Shown here piece by piece: positions 5,983-12,330 of a stretch of 64,000 nucleotides of DNA (its first letter is position 1; the number at the start of each line of letters is the position of its first letter). Below the pieces are notes generated by a model. That model saw only the letters and a program-made list of their open reading frames with translations, was not told the DNA's origin and searched no databases. Position numbers and translations under genes: made by a program. The DNA is from a virus (taxonomy: Duplodnaviria > Caudoviricetes). The stretch is from the IMG/VR virus record IMGVR_UViG_3300042883_001293; one strand, given 5' to 3'.

Positions 5983-6601
5983 CTACAAGAAGTATTCTCT
6001 TGAAAATCTTGAAAACTGGATGCACGATGCAATGTCTTGTGCGGAAGCAACACCTCAAGAAATCTATGATGTGATTAAAGGTGTTGTTGAGGACAACTAC
6101 TATACGTACAAGCATCAAGCATCTCAAGCATATGAACTTCTTGCTCTTCTGAATGGTAATGGTAAGGGTCATATTGAAGCATATGACGCTGTAATGCGTG
6201 AGAAAGAGTATTATGAACCTTCTATGCCTCCTTGGGGACATAGTGACATGGAAGCACTTCAATACACAGAAGAAGAAATGGATGCTATGTGTGATGCTGC
6301 TAAAAAACAGGAAGATCAACGTCAAATGACATATGATGAAGCAATTGCTGCTGGTTGGACTATGACTGCTGATGGTTTCTGGATCAAAGAATCTCCCAAA
6401 CTTAAAAAAGATAAAGTTGTAAAGTGGCAACTTCCTGTTGAAATTGATGGTCCAAGTGGAGAATACTTTATTTGCTTCCCTGATGACCTGCTAGAAGCAG
6501 CAAATCTGAAAGAAGGTGATCAGGTAAATTGGGTTGACAATGGTGATGGATCTTACATCTTGACTAAAGTAACTGAACCACTTGGTATGGATGAGTGTTG
6601 A
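5972..6601 (+). CDS. modular protein with C-terminal AbrB/MazE-like swapped-hairpin domain
   Basis: C-terminus VEIDGPSGEYFICFPDDLLEAANLKEGDQVNWVDNGDGSYILTKV fits the SpoVT/AbrB pattern. Confidence 0.6.
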   Translation: MTFDYKKYSLENLENWMHDAMSCAEATPQEIYDVIKGVVEDNYYTYKHQASQAYELLALLNGNGKGHIEAYDAVMREKEYYEPSMPPWGHSDMEALQYTEEEMDAMCDAAKKQEDQRQMTYDEAIAAGWTMTADGFWIKESPKLKKDKVVKWQLPVEIDGPSGEYFICFPDDLLEAANLKEGDQVNWVDNGDGSYILTKVTEPLGMDEC

Positions 6602-6757
6602 TGATTGAAACTCTTCTTTGTGGTTACAATTTACTCTGCCATGTAAGAAACGTGGTAGAATATCCAAAAATACAAACGCCTGTGATAAAGTATTACGAAC
6701 CAGGCAAATCCTGTTATGTAAACGGAACCTTTTATACTAAATGTGAGGACAGATTAA

Positions 6758-6988
6758 ATGGCATTAAGTGAATCGGTGGAGCAAAGTTTAAAAGAAGCTG
6801 AAGCAAATCTTCGTAATGCACTTGCATATGCTGCTCGTCAAGAACGACCAATGGTTTGTAGTGTAATTGCAGATATTATCAGTCGTATTGAATCTCTACA
6901 GGCAACTGATTCTATTCTTGATAAACTTGAAAATCGCAAGTCTGGTGACAGTGGGTTTTTTGGATCTTTCTTTGATGGTAAAGATTAA
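6758..6988 (+). CDS. hypothetical protein
   Basis: 76 aa ORF, GAGG SD upstream. Confidence 0.75.
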   Translation: MALSESVEQSLKEAEANLRNALAYAARQERPMVCSVIADIISRIESLQATDSILDKLENRKSGDSGFFGSFFDGKD

Positions 6989-7083
6989 TCATTAAGTGTT
7001 GTAACGCGATCCCAAAGAAAACATTAAGTTTCTAGATATTAATGTATTGGAATGCTAATATTGGGACACATCGCAAAAACACT

Positions 7084-7260
7084 ATGACCCTTGCAAAAAC
7101 TGGAACTGCAAACCTCACTACCGAAGAATGGAATGAACTAATTGCACTAAAAGAGGCAATTAGTTATGCTCCTCAAACAGTTTCTGCAGAGAAAATGGAA
7201 AAATTCGTAGAACTTATGGTCCGCTCTCTTGAAGGAAAAGGCGATTGCACACCACGATAA
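7084..7260 (+). CDS. hypothetical protein
   Basis: ORF track 7042..7260; ATG 7084. Confidence 0.65.
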   Translation: MTLAKTGTANLTTEEWNELIALKEAISYAPQTVSAEKMEKFVELMVRSLEGKGDCTPR

Positions 7261-7263
7261 AAA

Positions 7264-7270
7264 ATAAATA
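7264..7270 (+). promoter_or_regulatory. late promoter for cp12
   Basis: ATAAATA upstream of ATG 7291. Confidence 0.55.
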
Positions 7271-7290
7271 AGTATTATCAAAATACAAAA

Positions 7291-7503
7291 ATGGAAAACA
7301 TCGACCAACATATTCAAAAAGATAAAGAACTTCTGGAAGATCCTATGATTTCTCCACAAGCAAGAAGGCATACTGAGGAAGAACTTGAAGCACTGAGATC
7401 CTATAAAGAGCATCACCCTAATGATAATCATGATCCAACTGCATTAGAATTGTACTGCGATGCTAATCCTAATGCCCTTGAATGCAGAGTTTATGAAGAC
7501 TGA
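7291..7503 (+). CDS. cp12: CP12 Calvin-cycle inhibitor (cyanophage type)
   Basis: C-terminal DPTALELYCDANPNALECRVYED with the conserved Cys pair of CP12. Confidence 0.9.
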   Translation: MENIDQHIQKDKELLEDPMISPQARRHTEEELEALRSYKEHHPNDNHDPTALELYCDANPNALECRVYED

Positions 7504-7589
7504 GACCTAAATTAAATCCTTAAAAAAGACCCTCCTACACGACCATGCAGGAGGGTTTCATGCTATAATACCTGAAACAAACAAACATT

Positions 7590-8921
7590 ATGAAATTAAA
7601 CCTTTTCATTTTAGGAGAAGAACAAGCGTCTCTTGAAATTATGACGGTTATATCTTGGTGGATTAAATCTCCTTTGAGTGTAGATGTTAATAAAGTAAGG
7701 TTTATTCCTGTTCCGATTTATGGCAACCTTTTCTTCAAAATTGAGGGAGTTGCTCTTGAACAATATCATTCTGTTTATTATGGAATTATATCAAAAACTG
7801 GTAATAGTTTTGTAGATTATCTCATATACGAAGGTAATACTATTCCTGAAGAGGATTCTCTTCCTGTTGCTGCACTAGAAGCAACTAAGAATGACGGAAA
7901 AGAATCTGGAAATATGTCAGATCAACGTGCTGGTAAAAGTATTGCTCTTCGTTCTAAGTGGGAAAATATTCCATTTGGTTACTTGATCAATCACCCAAAC
8001 CCAATTAGCAAAACTGTTAAAACTTTTGGTTTGGGTCATAACTGTGCATTTGCTACTATGAAAGCACTTAGAACTGATGTTATTATTGCACAAACAGACA
8101 AAGTAGAATTCAAGAAATATGACAATCCTATCACTTATGATTCCATTGAGAGTGTCATTGTAGCAGAAAATTCCAAACAGAAAAGGGCAGGAACTCCTTG
8201 TAGGGTGAATCGTGTTGGAAATAAGATTCAAATTCAGGCAAAATTGATTAAAAATGGTGGTAAACATGATCCTAGTGAAGGATATGTTGCTAGTCGTGCA
8301 TGTTTAATTCGACATCTTGATTCAAATATTACGATTGAAATTGTCAATCACCAGCAGGACCTTCGTTACTTTCAGAGAAAGAACAATAAATTTATCAATT
8401 GCTTAAAGAAAGTTGGTGTTACTGTCATATTTGACGATTCTTCTTATGTAATTGAGCGTGAAGATAATGTGTATGAGAAATCTTATTGGAGATACTCAAA
8501 AACTGGTGAGAAAATGTGCAGCATTGTGTTAGAGCACATTTTGATTAGTAAAGGGCACCAAATTATTTTTACGAATCATGCTGGTTGTGGTAAATCGTGG
8601 AAAAAAATCAATGGAGAATACTTCCCGACCAAGAAATCGAAAGGTATTCCCGACCTCGTATCTTACAATCCCACAAATGCAACTCTGTATGTAATTGAGG
8701 CAGAAACCACTAAAAACTATAAAAAAGGATTGGCACAGGTGCGTGATCAAAACTTTGATACTTTTATTGAAAGGGAATTTCTTCCACACTTCCCAAAAGA
8801 TACTAAAGTTTTGAAGTATCTCTGCACTTATGGACAATATAATCAAGAACCAGAGGTTCTGTTCAACTTGACAGGGGACTTTCAAATGAATTATAATGAG
8901 AATGCTGAGGTGATTCAATGA
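7590..8921 (+). CDS. putative restriction endonuclease with two PD-(D/E)xK-like motifs
   Basis: N-terminal VDYLIY...LEATK...ESGN..DQR; C-terminal E...IPDLV...IEAE...GLAQ; coupled (ATGA) to two MTases. Confidence 0.55.
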   Translation: MKLNLFILGEEQASLEIMTVISWWIKSPLSVDVNKVRFIPVPIYGNLFFKIEGVALEQYHSVYYGIISKTGNSFVDYLIYEGNTIPEEDSLPVAALEATKNDGKESGNMSDQRAGKSIALRSKWENIPFGYLINHPNPISKTVKTFGLGHNCAFATMKALRTDVIIAQTDKVEFKKYDNPITYDSIESVIVAENSKQKRAGTPCRVNRVGNKIQIQAKLIKNGGKHDPSEGYVASRACLIRHLDSNITIEIVNHQQDLRYFQRKNNKFINCLKKVGVTVIFDDSSYVIEREDNVYEKSYWRYSKTGEKMCSIVLEHILISKGHQIIFTNHAGCGKSWKKINGEYFPTKKSKGIPDLVSYNPTNATLYVIEAETTKNYKKGLAQVRDQNFDTFIEREFLPHFPKDTKVLKYLCTYGQYNQEPEVLFNLTGDFQMNYNENAEVIQ

Positions 8922-9886
8922 GATACATTGGTAACAAAACTAAATTACTTGATTTTATTCATGGAGAGATTCAGTCTGTCTGTGGAGATATCTCTACGTC
9001 TAAATTTTGTGATTTGTTTTCTGGATCTGGTTCTGTAGCAAGATATTTTAAGCAGCATTGTGCCGAAGTTATTGCTAATGATCTTGAAGATTATAGTTAC
9101 GTTTTGTGTCAAAATTATATTGGTAATAATGAGGTGTTTGAATATCAAAAATTGATCGATTACCTTAATAGTCTTCCTGGAGTAAAAGGAAGGTTCTATG
9201 AAAACTTTTCTCCAGCAGCAGGACGCTCATTTTTCACAGAGCATAATGCACAAAAGATTGACGCAATCCGAATGGAGATTGAGAATCTTAATTTACCCAA
9301 AAATCAATACTATTTTTCCCTTGCTTCATTGATAGAAACTGCAGATTCATATGCTAATACCACTGGTGTTTATGGAGCATACTTAAAGAGTTTTAACGCC
9401 AGATCTAGTAAAAATATGAGTTTAGTTGCTCACCCTCATGTTCCTGGCGGAATAGGTAAGGTCTATAAGAAAAACGCAAACGATCTTATTCATGAGATTA
9501 ATGGAGATATTCTTTATCTTGATCCTCCATATAACACTAGACAGTATGGTGCCAATTATCACATTCCAAATTACATTGTAAATTACTTTGATTTTGATTA
9601 CAATCAAGACTCAAAGACTGCTCTTGGAACTTACAATAAATCTGAGTTTTCGCAAAAGAAGTCCGTTAAGATTGCATTCGAAGATTTGATATCTAATGCA
9701 AAATATAACTATATCTTTGTTTCGTACAATAATGAAGGTATTCTTTCCTTTGCTGATATTGAGAAGATCATGACGAAATATGGGAAATATGATCTTAAAG
9801 AAAAGGAGCACAAAAGATACAAATCAAATACAAACAATTTGCAACAATCAAAAGTAGTTGAACACCTTCACGTATTGATAAAATGA
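8918..9886 (+). CDS. N6-adenine DNA methyltransferase, D12 class (M.NlaIII / N-half of M.FokI type)
   Basis: MRYIGNK, DLFSGSG (motif I), GVYGAYLK, LYLDPPYNTRQY (motif IV), SYNNEG. Confidence 0.9.
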   Translation: MRYIGNKTKLLDFIHGEIQSVCGDISTSKFCDLFSGSGSVARYFKQHCAEVIANDLEDYSYVLCQNYIGNNEVFEYQKLIDYLNSLPGVKGRFYENFSPAAGRSFFTEHNAQKIDAIRMEIENLNLPKNQYYFSLASLIETADSYANTTGVYGAYLKSFNARSSKNMSLVAHPHVPGGIGKVYKKNANDLIHEINGDILYLDPPYNTRQYGANYHIPNYIVNYFDFDYNQDSKTALGTYNKSEFSQKKSVKIAFEDLISNAKYNYIFVSYNNEGILSFADIEKIMTKYGKYDLKEKEHKRYKSNTNNLQQSKVVEHLHVLIK

Positions 9887-10824
9887 CTTTTACAGAATTT
9901 GTGCTATCTCATGAGATAGTTAAGAATCCCAAAGTTAAAACAAGAACAAATACTGCTTCTCCATTTATTCAGTGGGTTGGAGGAAAACGTTCTCTGATAG
10001 AGAAATATAATCCTTTTATACCAATAGAATTTAATCGTTATTTTGAACCATTTTTGGGTGGTGGTGCAATGTTTTATCATATGCACTCCAAATATGGAAA
10101 TACAAAAGAATACTTTCTTTCCGATTTAAACGAAGAACTTATTTTAGTTTATAATACTGTAGTTTCAAATCCAAATGAAATTGTACAATTAATTAATTAC
10201 ATGAGCGTAAGACACTCTAAGGAGTTTTATTATTCTGTACGCAATTATGATAGGATTGAATTGGCACCTAAGAAATATCAAAAGAATTTTGATATTATTC
10301 AAGTTCTGACTCCAATAGAAGTTGCTGCAAGATTTATCTATTTGAATCTAACATGCTTTAATGCATTGTATAGAGTCAACAAAGATAATTTGTTTAATGT
10401 GCCAATCGGAACTTCACTTAAAAAAGACATATCTGATAATGGATTATTAAAAGCATGTTCTGAAGTTTTATGTAATGCAACAATCAAATATCAATCTTAC
10501 CAATCTATGACACCAGAGAAAGGTGATTTTGTATTTCTTGATCCACCTTATGCACCAATTTCTGCAACTTCAGATTTTACTTCTTATACTACAGAAGGTT
10601 TTGGGTTAGAGAATCAAAAGGAGTTGAAAGAGTATTGTGATAATTTAAATTCCAAAGGTGTAAAGTTTATTCTTGCAAATTCTAACTGCGAATTTATCCG
10701 TGAATTATATAAAAATTATACACAACACACTTTTTCATTGAATAGAACACTGAATTCAAAAAAGGAATTGAGAAAGCAAACCACAGATAATGAGATTATG
10801 GTGACTAATTGTGACACTATTTGA
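9883..10824 (+). CDS. N6-adenine DNA methyltransferase, Dam/DpnM family
   Basis: WVGGK, EPFLGGGA (motif I), FLDPPY (motif IV); specificity not determinable. Confidence 0.9.
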   Translation: MTFTEFVLSHEIVKNPKVKTRTNTASPFIQWVGGKRSLIEKYNPFIPIEFNRYFEPFLGGGAMFYHMHSKYGNTKEYFLSDLNEELILVYNTVVSNPNEIVQLINYMSVRHSKEFYYSVRNYDRIELAPKKYQKNFDIIQVLTPIEVAARFIYLNLTCFNALYRVNKDNLFNVPIGTSLKKDISDNGLLKACSEVLCNATIKYQSYQSMTPEKGDFVFLDPPYAPISATSDFTSYTTEGFGLENQKELKEYCDNLNSKGVKFILANSNCEFIRELYKNYTQHTFSLNRTLNSKKELRKQTTDNEIMVTNCDTI

Positions 10825-10893
10825 ACTGTCCACTCTGCCCTCGACTCTGCCCCACTCTGCCCTATACTAAAAAGGTAATCAACGAAACGCCTC
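10811..10893 (+). promoter_or_regulatory. early promoter cassette (dyad, TATACT, GGTAATCAAC leader)
   Basis: GTGACA-N10-TGTCCA 10811-10832; TATACT 10863; leader shared with 12372, 15777 and 17401. Confidence 0.7.
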
Positions 10894-11307
10894 ATGGCAA
10901 CCCGCTCCCGCATTGGTATCGAACTCGCTGATGGTTCTATTCTTTCTGCGTATTCTCATTGGGATGGTTATCCTGAATGGATGGGACGCATTCTTCGCAC
11001 TCACTATAACACCAAAGAGAAAGTAGCAGAACTGATTGATGGTGGTGATATGAGTTCTCCTTGGACTACTTCCCGTTGGGATACTAAACTCAACGAAGAG
11101 TATGGTCCCGAATACTATTCTCAACGTGGTGAGAATTGCCCTCCTCGCCTTGATGCTGATCTGGGTGAGTATCTGCTCCCCGATAATAGTGAAGAGTATG
11201 CTTATGTCTTCCGTAATGGTGAATGGGTGTGCTACAATATGAATCAGTTTGACGATTCAAAACTCCCTGAAATCGTTGAAATCCCTTCTGCTGCTCTTGC
11301 TGTTTGA
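10894..11307 (+). CDS. conserved phage hypothetical protein (HWDGYP family)
   Basis: MATRSRIG...YSHWDGYPEW motif. Confidence 0.8.
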   Translation: MATRSRIGIELADGSILSAYSHWDGYPEWMGRILRTHYNTKEKVAELIDGGDMSSPWTTSRWDTKLNEEYGPEYYSQRGENCPPRLDADLGEYLLPDNSEEYAYVFRNGEWVCYNMNQFDDSKLPEIVEIPSAALAV

Positions 11308-11522
11308 TAATGATTGATCAAAAACCTGTCACGATGGAATTCACTTTTGAAGAGCATGATTTTCTGAATGACATCTTGTGCCATGCATCAGACGGAATAT
11401 ATGTGGCATGTCCAAATCTTCATGAAATGCCAGAAGACTCTGAAATTCGCCAACGTTTTAGAATGCTTGAACAAATGAGGCATAAATCTAATCAACTTTG
11501 GAAAAACCGTTTTGATAAATGA
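11304..11522 (+). CDS. hypothetical protein
   Basis: 72 aa ORF. Confidence 0.65.
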   Translation: MIMIDQKPVTMEFTFEEHDFLNDILCHASDGIYVACPNLHEMPEDSEIRQRFRMLEQMRHKSNQLWKNRFDK

Positions 11523-11794
11523 CTATGAAATTCACTGATCTTGATTTCCATTCACACAACATTATGCCAGATGGTATTGCTGCACGACACTTTTTTCAGA
11601 ATGGATATGGTATGAGCGTGGTGAGTTTTCCTGGTTCATATGGTGCCGAAGAAGGACTGTATGAGGTGGCAATTCTCAAAGGACTTGAAGAGGACTGGGA
11701 AATCTGCTATGATACTCCCGTCACGGATGATGTAATTGGTTATCAATCCGTGGAGGATATTGATAATCTTCTTTCACAAGTTGAATCTCTTTAA
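11519..11794 (+). CDS. conserved phage hypothetical protein
   Basis: NGYGMSVV...GLYEVAIL...TPVTDDVIGY motif. Confidence 0.75.
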   Translation: MTMKFTDLDFHSHNIMPDGIAARHFFQNGYGMSVVSFPGSYGAEEGLYEVAILKGLEEDWEICYDTPVTDDVIGYQSVEDIDNLLSQVESL

Positions 11795-11796
11795 TT

Positions 11797-12330
11797 ATGA
11801 CACAACAATTTAATATTGGTGATATTGTCACCAAAAAACATGGTAAAAAACCTGCTGAAATTGTCAGTAAAGGTTGGTATACGTCAGATTCTTGGACTTG
11901 TCGGTATCTTCATTCCAAACAATCTTTTACTGAATATGCATCTGATCTAAAACTTTACGATGAGGAAACTGAAATGACTGCTGACACTAAAACTCTCTAT
12001 TCTTTCACTGTTGATGGTGCTGTTGCCTATGGCACTCACATCGGCACTAACAGTAGCAACCAATACCTGATTGAAGAAAAAGGTACTGGTAAGATTCACG
12101 TCTTTGATAAGAAAGACCTGGAAGAAGTTGTGCCTTATACTTTCAGTGCAACTATGGGTGGTAAAGAAACCCATTATGTTGGTACTCCTGGTGCTCTGAA
12201 CAAAGGTGATGTGCTACTCTACACTGGTTCCAGCACTCCCCAGGTTGCCGTGGTAACTGGTGTGGATACCAAGAACAAAAGCGCCCGATCCAAGTTCAAG
12301 GGTGCTAAACTGGTGACTGAGGCAATCTGA
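11797..12330 (+). CDS. hypothetical protein with SH3/KOW-like N-terminus
   Basis: FNIGDIVTKK start; 177 aa. Confidence 0.7.
   Translation: MTQQFNIGDIVTKKHGKKPAEIVSKGWYTSDSWTCRYLHSKQSFTEYASDLKLYDEETEMTADTKTLYSFTVDGAVAYGTHIGTNSSNQYLIEEKGTGKIHVFDKKDLEEVVPYTFSATMGGKETHYVGTPGALNKGDVLLYTGSSTPQVAVVTGVDTKNKSARSKFKGAKLVTEAI

What the first reader, a model, noticed from the sequence alone, without database searches (positions are those of the whole stretch)
7510..10824. Complete restriction-modification-like operon in a lytic phage: two-active-site nuclease candidate plus a split FokI-type MTase pair
Seen: three ATGA-coupled genes behind their own TGCTATAAT promoter and bounded by early cassettes. The 443-aa protein has two nuclease-like motif sets: VD...EATK...ESGN..QR and E...PD-x13-EAE...G..Q. 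MTase 1 has NlaIII/FokI-N-half motifs and MTase 2 has Dam/DpnM motifs. Known: FokI/StsI use this MTase pairing, one per strand of an asymmetric site, and Mva1269I/BsmI-type enzymes carry two catalytic domains in one chain. Inference: an uncharacterised asymmetric-site system used to degrade host DNA or exclude co-infecting phages. Lytic T4-like phages usually carry orphan MTases, not a cognate nuclease.
Basis: partly seen in the sequence, partly recalled or inferred. Interest (0 to 1): 0.78.

Follow-up and report, generated by a model that had tools for sequence, protein, structure and literature searches.

The report
BtsCI-type restriction-modification cassette in a cyanophage
A freshwater T4-like cyanophage carries a complete, apparently working restriction-modification system of a known type: a cutting enzyme with two active sites related to BtsCI and BsmI, plus two strand-specific adenine methylases. 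This is rare in lytic phages, but the same cassette turns up in many lake and ocean phage contigs.

Summary
Three genes overlap by ATGA: 7590-8921 (443 aa), 8918-9886 (322 aa) and 9883-10824 (313 aa).

- **Nuclease.** The 443-aa protein is a full-length homologue of the Type IIS enzyme BtsCI (GGATG 2/0): 27% identity, E 2e-27, hhalign probability 99.9. Its AlphaFold model (pLDDT 90.5) matches only BsmI over its whole length (Z 13.1). Both catalytic sites shown by mutagenesis in BtsCI are conserved: E97, Q112 and R113; and D355, E370 and E372.
- **Methylases.** Both are intact D12 m6A enzymes. They also occur naturally fused in the same order, as in FokI-type methylases.
- **Linkage.** The trio recurs in every homologous locus with enough sequence, in different genomic neighbourhoods.
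- **New here.** A perfect TTGACA-N18-TATAAT promoter lies inside the nuclease gene, 21 nt before methylase 1. It is conserved at synonymous sites in six relatives. This points to strong methylase and weak nuclease expression.

The recognition site is not established. I infer a GATG/CATC core, and GGATG is the leading candidate. The biological role (host DNA degradation, excluding rival phages, or a selfish cassette) is inferred only.

Verdict: a new member of a known kind in an unusual host. Earlier in this scan, BsmI/BtsCI-like systems were noted on other DNA (a bacterial island and a CPR prophage), but not this phage clade.

The parts
7527..7558 (+). Stable hairpin just upstream of the cassette. 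It is probably the terminator of the preceding gene unit.
   Evidence: RNA fold -16.4 kcal/mol, z -3.3, with 0 of 200 shuffles folding as well. A 12-pair stem was also found by the terminator scan.
7561..7569 (+). Extended -10 element TGCTATAAT, 21 nt before the nuclease start. It is a candidate weak early promoter with a poor -35.
   Evidence: Read. The pattern is not enriched in the window. Homologous cassettes carry 11-12/12 sigma-70 matches at the same place.
7590..8921 (+). Type IIS restriction endonuclease, 443 aa, of the BtsCI/BsmI family. N-terminal site: E10/E11, D76, E97, Q112, R113. C-terminal site: E315, D355, E370, E372. No Shine-Dalgarno sequence precedes it.
   Evidence: PADLOC REase_II PDLC03445, 9.2e-24. 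BLASTP to BtsCI (ACZ62642.1) gives 27% identity, E 2e-27, full length. hhalign probability 99.9. AF2 pLDDT 90.5. BsmI match: Foldseek 1.1e-9 and VIA Z 13.1 over 394 residues. Invariant residues are listed.
8868..8897 (+). Perfect sigma-70 consensus promoter (TTGACA-N18-TATAAT) inside the 3' end of the nuclease gene. It would drive the two methylase genes.
   Evidence: It is the only perfect match in the 64-kb window (0.13 expected). It is identical and at the same offset in L002, L006, L010, L013, L016 and L020. The four codons that form the hexamers are invariant in 7 of 7 sequences, while the same amino acids in neighbouring columns vary in codon.
8907..8914 (+). Strong Shine-Dalgarno-like GAGGTGAT, 3 nt before the start of methylase 1.
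   Evidence: Read. GAGG/GGAG-type motifs occur at the same place in homologues.
8918..9886 (+). Methylase 1, 322 aa, a D12-class m6A enzyme of the FokI-N-half / HpyI-NlaIII kind. Motif I (FSGSG) and motif IV (DPPY) are intact.
   Evidence: PF02086 5.9e-43. PADLOC PDLC03257 8.4e-102, and residues 1-333 of the 646-aa fused model PDLC03287 at 1.8e-65. phrog_27806 8.8e-62. Phage homologues are annotated 'ulcer associated adenine specific', 'LlaI methylase' and 'fokIM'.
9883..10824 (+). Methylase 2, 313 aa, a Dam/DpnM-family D12 m6A enzyme. Motif I (FLGGG) and motif IV (DPPY) are intact. Q30 replaces Dam K9, and the Dam R124 equivalent is kept.
   Evidence: PF02086 6.3e-52. TIGR00571 1.1e-70. DpnM (2dpm) 1.4e-52 and E. 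coli Dam 2.5e-30. Alignment of nuclease-linked MTase 2 homologues.

Best explanation
This is a complete, self-contained Type IIS restriction-modification cassette of the BtsCI/BsmI kind. It is carried in the accessory region of a freshwater T4-like cyanomyovirus.

**Components.** The 443-aa enzyme is a monomer with two different PD-(D/E)XK-type active sites. By analogy with BtsCI and BsmI, the N-terminal site nicks the bottom strand and the C-terminal site nicks the top strand. Both cuts fall at or right next to an asymmetric recognition site. The two methylases each put m6A on one strand of that site. MTase 1 would read the ...ATG strand and MTase 2 the ...ATC strand. This implies a GATG/CATC core, and GGATG/CATCC is the most likely full site.

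**Expression.** The layout is built for a phage that arrives already methylated. The nuclease comes first, with a weak promoter and no ribosome-binding site. The methylases have their own perfect sigma-70 promoter and a strong ribosome-binding site, and they are translationally coupled to each other. Methylation should therefore outrun cutting on replicating phage DNA. Unmethylated DNA in the cell, whether the host chromosome or a co-infecting phage without the cassette, would be cut.

**Shown:** the family, the fold, the catalytic residues, the linkage of the three genes, and the conserved internal promoter. **Inferred:** activity, the site, strand assignment, expression levels and biological role.
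For: **Homology.** PADLOC REase_II, 9.2e-24. Full-length BLASTP to the characterised BtsCI gives 27% identity, E 2e-27. hhalign probability is 99.9.

**Fold.** The model has pLDDT 90.5. BsmI is the only whole-chain PDB match: Foldseek 1.1e-9, and VIA Z 13.1 with 394 residues aligned at rmsd 4.1. Each half separately matches PD-(D/E)XK nucleases.

**Catalysis.** BtsCI E128, R145, D388, E403 and E405 give strand-specific nickases when mutated (PMC2831314). They align to E97, R113, D355, E370 and E372, all invariant in 20 homologues. The BsmI metal ligands are D9/D91/E109 and E470/D528 (PMC11889245). The invariant E10/E11, D76, E97 and E315, D355 have the corresponding order and motif positions in this protein; residue-level equivalence to BsmI was not output by any tool.

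**Linkage.** Nuclease plus two D12 methylases occur in every homologous locus with enough sequence. The surroundings differ and the layouts vary: R-M1-M2, R-M2-M1, convergent, and fused M1-M2.

**Regulation.** A perfect promoter at 8868-8897 is conserved at synonymous sites. Strong sigma-70 matches lie upstream of the nuclease gene in homologues.

**Intactness in nature.** Near-identical cassettes occur in lake and freshwater metagenomes of at least 8 studies, with no indels listed inside the cassette in the four runs laid.

**Site inference.** Q replaces Dam K9, and the R124 equivalent is kept, in all close nuclease-linked MTase 2 proteins. R124 reads the fourth base pair, and the first-base-pair contact is not conserved in the Dam family (PMC4417163).
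Against: - No activity data exist, and no RNA run holds the stretch.
- Identity to BtsCI is only 27%, so the specificity may differ. This superfamily also reads GAATGC, ACTGG, GCAGTG and GCAATG.
- BtsCI D121, which is important in mutagenesis, aligns to S90. The adjacent D89 is not conserved in the phage clade.
- MTase 2 matches the C-half of the FokI-like fused model only weakly (47 bits).
- GGATG is not avoided in the 68-kb record (78 observed, 102 expected). This is neutral.
- The nuclease's own promoter is only a consensus match.
- That K9 of E. coli Dam contacts the first base pair is my recollection of Horton et al. 2006. I did not read it in a paper here.
Confidence: 0.85

Rival explanations
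1. The cassette is mainly a selfish mobile element. The nuclease cuts unmethylated genomes of co-infecting relatives that lack the cassette. Recombinational repair or exclusion then spreads or maintains it, much as homing endonucleases spread in T4-type phages. It need not help the phage against its host. This is a rival on biological role only; the molecular identity is the same.
For: The cassette sits in different neighbourhoods in different phage contigs. It carries its own promoters. Its flanking genes are covered far more deeply than the cassette in lake metagenomes. Two contigs join the flanks without it: 7239->11315 in X9 and 7240->10956 in X18. It is absent from the roughly 360 cultured cyanomyoviruses that share the flanking gene. 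Its G+C is slightly below that of its neighbours. The same genome holds several homing-nuclease genes.
Against: The joints rest on single contigs with short sides, at 85% likeness, and what lies between is unknown. The clade is old and diverse (31-78% identity) with all three genes kept intact. That fits a lasting benefit as well as selfish persistence.
Confidence: 0.3
2. The two methylases are the functional part, acting against host restriction. The nuclease is then either inactive or only a nicking enzyme kept for another purpose, such as DNA processing.
For: Orphan methylases are common in phages (143 solitary MTases in 831 phages, PMC4176335). The methylases are more conserved than the nuclease (65-75% against 52-55% identity). 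BtsCI D121 is not conserved. The methylases have their own promoter.
Against: All other catalytic residues of both sites are invariant over 31-78% identity. The nuclease is full length without indels in independent metagenomes. It is never seen without the methylase pair, and MTase 1-type genes are rare in phages otherwise (12 records). MTase 2 is under 38% identical to other phage Dam-family genes in the collection, among them those of 187 Synechococcus phage records.
Confidence: 0.08
3. The system is a real R-M system, but its site is not GGATG. It could be another GATG/CATC-core site such as GCATC or CCATC, or a different asymmetric sequence altogether.
For: Identity to BtsCI is only 27%. 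MTase 2 is only weakly like the FokI-type C-half. The most under-represented pentamer in the record is CAATG/CATTG (114 against 169, z -4.2). It resembles sites of the same superfamily, such as BsrDI GCAATG.
Against: The methylase architecture is colinear with the FokI-like fused model. The BtsCI paper judged 33%-identical homologues with two separate methylases to be likely GGATG enzymes (PMC2831314). CAATG holds no ATC for a Dam-type enzyme.
Confidence: 0.5

Closest known systems
BtsCI (GGATG 2/0), Ureibacillus thermosphaericus; REase ACZ62642.1, 465 aa
   Same: Full-length homology (27% identity, E 2e-27) and similar length. The N-terminal E-X14/15-QR site is the same. The BamHI-like C-terminal PD-X14-ExE site has identical spacing (D388/E403/E405 against D355/E370/E372). 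Two D12 m6A methylase activities are linked to it.
   Different: BtsCI's methylase is one fused protein 62% identical to M.FokI; here there are two separate genes. A 31-residue insertion of BtsCI before the N-terminal site is absent here. BtsCI D121 aligns to S90. The host is a thermophilic bacterium, not a phage. The site of the phage enzyme is unknown.
Cup_ORF1489 (Campylobacter upsaliensis) and Nfl_ORF1032 (Neisseria flavescens), putative BtsCI isoschizomers named in PMC2831314
   Same: They are 463-472-aa BtsCI homologues, each accompanied by two separate methylases that match the two halves of M.BtsCI. This is the same split arrangement as here.
   Different: They are bacterial and chromosomal. 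Their C-terminal motif is PD-Xn-EXK, whereas the phage enzyme has ExE like BtsCI. I could not fetch their sequences, so no direct comparison was made.
BsmI / Mva1269I (GAATGC 1/-1); BsmI structures 9f38, 9ezd
   Same: BsmI is the only whole-chain structural match (Z 13.1, 394 residues). The plan is the same: an N-terminal bottom-strand domain, a central domain, and a C-terminal top-strand domain in one monomer.
   Different: BsmI has 676 residues and 12-14% identity. Its C-terminal motif is EXK, and its recognition site differs.
Chlorovirus R-M systems (for example R.CviAII/M.CviAII of PBCV-1)
   Same: A lytic virus encodes both a site-specific nuclease and its cognate adenine methylase. The viral DNA is methylated, and host DNA is degraded early in infection (established knowledge, not tested here).
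   Different: Those are eukaryotic algal viruses with Type IIP palindromic enzymes of unrelated folds and single methylases. Host DNA degradation has not been shown for this phage.
Streptococcus prophages Javan102/105/108/112
   Same: They are the only records in the phage collection with a homologue of the nuclease (23% identity, 88% cover). It lies next to an MTase 1-like methylase ('ulcer associated', 36%) and a Dam-type methylase.
   Different: They are temperate prophages of a Gram-positive host, with three methylases on the opposite strand. They lie inside a defence-type island next to RloC.

Membership tests
BtsCI/BsmI/Mva1269I group of monomeric Type IIS endonucleases with two catalytic sites | Full-length sequence homology to a characterised member | tested here: met
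   BLASTP to BtsCI: 27% identity over residues 1-430, E 2e-27. hhalign probability 99.9, 409 columns. The profile of the phage clade retrieves BtsCI at 5.3e-45.
BtsCI/BsmI/Mva1269I group of monomeric Type IIS endonucleases with two catalytic sites | N-terminal (bottom-strand) site: (P/S)D-Xn-E-X14-QR | tested here: inconclusive
   E97-X14-Q112-R113 is present and invariant. D76 is invariant and conserved in BtsCI. It fits the PD Asp of BsmI (D91, PMC11889245). However, the residue aligned to BtsCI D121 is S90, and the neighbouring D89 varies within the clade.
BtsCI/BsmI/Mva1269I group of monomeric Type IIS endonucleases with two catalytic sites | C-terminal (top-strand) site: PD-Xn-EXK, or EXE as in BtsCI | tested here: met
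   P354-D355-X14-E370-A-E372 aligns residue for residue with BtsCI D388/E403/E405. It is invariant in 20 homologues.
BtsCI/BsmI/Mva1269I group of monomeric Type IIS endonucleases with two catalytic sites | Three-domain fold with two nuclease domains in one chain | tested here: met
   The AF2 model (pLDDT 90.5) aligns to BsmI over residues 2-440 at Z 13.1 and Foldseek 1.1e-9. The N half matches XPF/Hef-type nucleases. The C half matches SdaI/Hjc/VRR-NUC-type nucleases at Z 5-8.
BtsCI/BsmI/Mva1269I group of monomeric Type IIS endonucleases with two catalytic sites | Monomer that cuts both strands at or next to an asymmetric site | not testable with these tools
   This needs the purified enzyme, gel filtration and run-off sequencing of the cut sites.
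FokI-type two-domain D12 methylase (here split into two genes) | Two D12-class m6A domains, each with an AdoMet motif and DPPY | tested here: met
   PF02086 hits for both proteins. FSGSG and DPPY in MTase 1, and FLGGG and DPPY in MTase 2, were read.
FokI-type two-domain D12 methylase (here split into two genes) | Colinear with fused two-domain enzymes | tested here: met
   P0209 (670 aa) is 46% identical to MTase 1 in its N half and 49% identical to MTase 2 in its C half. It lies next to the same nuclease family. It matches positions 1-642 of the 646-position fused model PDLC03287 in one stretch.
FokI-type two-domain D12 methylase (here split into two genes) | Both halves closely related to the M.FokI halves | tested here: inconclusive
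   MTase 1 scores 220 bits on the N half of PDLC03287. MTase 2 scores only 47 bits on its C half and is far closer to Dam/DpnM models. That PDLC03287 represents M.FokI is my guess from its length. No M.FokI sequence was available.
FokI-type two-domain D12 methylase (here split into two genes) | Each domain methylates one strand of one asymmetric site | not testable with these tools
   This needs a methylome of DNA modified by each enzyme alone.
Dam (GATC) methylase, for MTase 2 | Dam-family sequence signature | tested here: met
   TIGR00571 scores 238 bits against a cut-off of 114.85. DpnM 1.4e-52.
Dam (GATC) methylase, for MTase 2 | Equivalence to E. coli Dam and retention of its GATC-reading residues | tested here: not met
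   The equivalog model PRK10904 scores 130 bits against a cut-off of 441. Dam K9 is Q30, and R137/Y138 are T/S, while R124, L122, N120 and P134 are kept. MTase 2 is therefore not filed as a GATC Dam.

The most novel reading that the evidence does not exclude
A whole clade of aquatic T4-like phages has domesticated a Type IIS R-M system as an offensive weapon. The genome is injected already methylated. This allows a nuclease-first gene order with no control protein. A conserved consensus promoter inside the nuclease gene keeps methylation ahead of replication. The nuclease then shreds host DNA for nucleotides and destroys co-infecting rival phages. This would be the bacterial-virus counterpart of chlorovirus R-M systems, and a functional replacement for T4's modified-base and EndoII/EndoIV logic.
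Probability: 0.4. Interest if true: 0.75.

Novelty: new member of a known kind. Interest (0 to 1): 0.55.

Why it matters
Complete R-M systems are nearly absent from virulent phages. Here a full Type IIS system forms a diverse, conserved clade in lake and ocean phage contigs. It would give lytic cyanophages a way to tell their own DNA from host and rival DNA without exotic bases. This bears on how cyanophages recycle host nucleotides and how co-infecting phages compete.

The conserved promoter buried in the nuclease gene is a testable example of how an R-M system is re-tuned for a viral life cycle. On the practical side, the clade offers mesophilic relatives of BtsCI with two separable active sites. 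These could be turned into strand-specific nicking enzymes, possibly with new specificities.

Tried and rejected
**Nuclease, no family hit.** Pfam, NCBIfam and PHROGs gave nothing for the nuclease. A sequence search of the PDB gave only a chance hit.

**Searches for relatives.**
- Megablast of the cassette against phages found nothing.
- A pattern scan of 185,579 species-representative bacterial and archaeal genomes with the phage-clade alignment found no relative. This says little, because the patterns were clade-specific.
- A search for longer relatives of MTase 1 returned many fused forms but none with a REBASE-type name. No direct comparison with M.FokI, M.BtsCI, M.StsI or M.NlaIII was possible.

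**K-mer statistics.** In the 68-kb record, GATC shows no avoidance (576 against 575). GGATG (0.77), GCATC, CCATC and GGATC show no informative avoidance. Site avoidance therefore does not reveal the target. The mild CAATG/CATTG deficit was noted but not trusted.

**Expression.** No RNA holder was listed among public runs, so expression could not be examined.

**Metagenome contigs.** Parts of the stretch without contig cover, and the low-likeness joints, were not used as firm evidence.

**Literature.** Searches for a described cyanophage R-M system of this kind found none. This does not prove that none exists.

**Rejected readings.**
- The two methylases as independent CATG and GATC orphans. 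They travel together with the nuclease everywhere, they occur fused, and MTase 2 lacks Dam K9.
- The nuclease N-terminus as a T4-type capsid-targeting peptide. E10/E11 belong to the invariant catalytic helix.


Full report
**What is there**

The stretch holds three same-strand ORFs: 7590-8921 (443 aa), 8918-9886 (322 aa) and 9883-10824 (313 aa). The ATGA stop/start overlap is present at both junctions.

Upstream lies a stable hairpin at 7527-7558 (-16.4 kcal/mol, z -3.3). It is followed by TGCTATAAT at 7561-7569. That extended -10 is only a consensus match. The pattern is as frequent in the window as in shuffles (7 against 6.2), and its -35 is poor.

The record is an IMG/VR viral contig of 67.9 kb, estimated about 32% complete. 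Its baseplate genes resemble those of Synechococcus myoviruses. The genes flanking the cassette have homologues in 362 and 124 phage records, nearly all of them cyanomyoviruses. An earlier follow-up in this scan also called it a freshwater T4-like cyanophage.

**The nuclease**

Pfam, NCBIfam and PHROGs are silent on the first protein. The PADLOC model REase_II PDLC03445 matches residues 85-428 at 9.2e-24.

An alignment of 20 homologues of 31-78% identity shows two invariant residue sets:
- E10, E11, D76, E97, T99, K100, G107, N108, Q112, R113
- E315, P354, D355, E370, E372, G380, Q383

With this alignment AlphaFold2 gives a confident model (pLDDT 90.5, pTM 0.88). Its only whole-chain match in the PDB is BsmI, by Foldseek at 1.1e-9 and by VIA-align at Z 13.1, with 394 residues aligned over 2-440. 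The two halves separately match PD-(D/E)XK nucleases. The N half matches XPF/Hef/Mus81. The C half matches SdaI, Hjc and VRR-NUC.

A profile search of 1.8 billion representative proteins found 302 related clusters. One of them is BtsCI itself (ACZ62642.1). Direct comparison gives 27% identity over the full length, E 2e-27. hhalign probability is 99.9.

BtsCI (GGATG 2/0) is a monomer. Mutating D121, E128 or R145 abolishes bottom-strand cutting. Mutating D388, E403 and E405 abolishes top-strand cutting. Its C-terminal motif is the BamHI-like PD-Xn-ExE (PMC2831314). In the alignment:
- E128, R145, D388, E403 and E405 correspond to E97, R113, D355, E370 and E372, with identical D-to-E spacing in the C-terminal site.
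- D121 corresponds to S90, next to a non-conserved D89.

The BsmI crystal structures place the metal ligands at D9/D91/E109 and E470/D528 (PMC11889245). The invariant E10/E11, D76, E97 and E315, D355 fit these positions, so D76 is the likelier N-site aspartate. I file the protein in the BtsCI/BsmI group, with that one feature left open.

**The methylases**

Both are D12-class enzymes (PF02086, 5.9e-43 and 6.3e-52) with intact AdoMet and DPPY motifs.

MTase 1 matches the N half of a 646-position fused methylase model. It matches a 343-position stand-alone model still better. Its few phage homologues are annotated as HpyI-type ('ulcer associated'), LlaI or FokI methylases.

MTase 2 is Dam-family (TIGR00571, 238 bits) and closest to DpnM among solved structures (1.4e-52). 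It scores only 47 bits on the C half of the fused model. It is under 38% identical to any other phage Dam, including those of cyanophages.

A natural fusion exists. P0209 (670 aa) is 46% identical to MTase 1 in its N half and 49% identical to MTase 2 in its C half. It matches the fused model end to end and lies directly after a nuclease of the same family. 'Split FokI-type pair' is therefore right as architecture. Close kinship is shown only for the first half.

**Linkage**

Every homologous locus with enough sequence has the nuclease plus two D12 methylases. These include freshwater contigs of 72-218 kb, a 156-kb NCBI contig, Tara ocean contigs and a 356-kb viral contig.

The order is usually R-M1-M2 with overlapping stops and starts. 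It is once R-M2-M1 and once convergent. The neighbouring genes differ from locus to locus.

The only hits among 50,697 phage records are four Streptococcus prophages. There a 23%-identical nuclease again lies beside MTase 1-like and Dam-like methylases.

**A conserved internal promoter**

The single perfect TTGACA-N18-TATAAT in the 64-kb window lies at 8868-8897, inside the nuclease gene and 21 nt before the MTase 1 start (0.13 expected per window).

The same perfect promoter sits at the same offset in L002, L006, L010, L013, L016 and L020. The four codons that make up the hexamers (Leu TTG, Thr ACA, Tyr TAT, Asn AAT) are invariant in all seven sequences. The same amino acids in neighbouring columns use several codons. 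This indicates selection on the DNA itself.

A strong Shine-Dalgarno-like GAGGTGAT follows at 8907-8914. The nuclease gene has none. Homologous cassettes also carry 11-12/12 sigma-70 matches upstream of the nuclease gene.

I read this as an autonomous early unit with weak nuclease and strong methylase expression. This is an inference from sequence, not a measurement.

**Recognition site**

The site is not established.

MTase 2 keeps the equivalent of Dam R124, which reads the fourth (C:G) base pair of GATC. The first-base-pair contact is not conserved in the Dam family, whose ancestor may have read ATC (PMC4417163). In all close nuclease-linked MTase 2 proteins, Dam K9 is Q or N. From memory of Horton et al. 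2006, K9 is the first-base-pair contact. So MTase 2 probably reads xATC rather than GATC.

MTase 1 belongs with enzymes for CATG and for the GGATG strand, which share ATG. One duplex that offers ATG on one strand and ATC on the other has a GATG/CATC core. With the BtsCI homology, GGATG/CATCC is the leading candidate (my estimate about 0.4).

The record holds 78 GGATG sites and shows no informative avoidance. The phage would therefore depend on its methylases.

**Ecology and mobility**

Near-identical copies occur in lake and freshwater metagenomes of at least eight studies beyond the possible source samples, dated 2017-2024.

In four of these runs the cassette is covered at a flat 5-12x, with no indels listed. 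The flanking genes reach hundreds to thousands, coming from related phages. Two contigs join the flanks across the cassette. This hints at presence/absence polymorphism, but the evidence is weak.

Complete R-M systems are rare in phages: 9 in 831 genomes, against 143 solitary methylases (PMC4176335).

**Verdict**

The system is a new member of a known kind: BtsCI-type Type IIS R-M with split methylases, as already predicted for Campylobacter and Neisseria homologues. The unusual points are its carriage by lytic T4-like cyanophages, the size of the aquatic phage clade, and the conserved promoter inside the nuclease gene. Its role (host DNA degradation, exclusion of rival phages, or selfish persistence) remains open.

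Noticed in passing
whole 67.9-kb record (window 1-64000 plus 3.9 kb upstream): All four RGCY tetranucleotides are strongly depleted against a Markov expectation: AGCC/GGCT 16 against 137, GGCC 10 against 97, AGCT 64 against 194. TGCA, GTAC, TCGA, CCGG and CATG are also low. This looks like avoidance of a CviJI-like (RGCY) activity and other four-base restriction activities in the hosts.
   Followed up: no
window 10832-10868: Three direct copies of ACTCTGCCC (10832-10840, 10844-10852, 10854-10862) lie at 10-12-bp spacing just after the MTase 2 stop. They run into a TATACT -10-like hexamer ahead of the next gene at 10894. This may be an operator or promoter element.
   Followed up: no
window 6500-7500 and 10900-11800: In lake metagenomes the conserved flanking genes are covered 10 to 400 times more deeply than the cassette. 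The reads are 85-95% alike, so many related cyanophages in the same lakes share the flanks but not the R-M cassette.
   Followed up: partly
L008:2009-4536: A homologous cassette lies in a phage-like contig next to a GIY-YIG/NUMOD1 homing-type nuclease, a class I tRNA-synthetase-like gene (PF00749) and a further Eco57I-type methylase gene.
   Followed up: no
L001 (Streptococcus phage Javan105, record 4.5-12.3 kb): The prophage homologue of the nuclease sits in a defence-type island. The island has three methylases on the opposite strand and an RloC anticodon nuclease directly upstream.
   Followed up: no
whole record: CAATG/CATTG is the most under-represented pentamer (114 against 169 expected, z -4.2). 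The cause is unknown.
   Followed up: no
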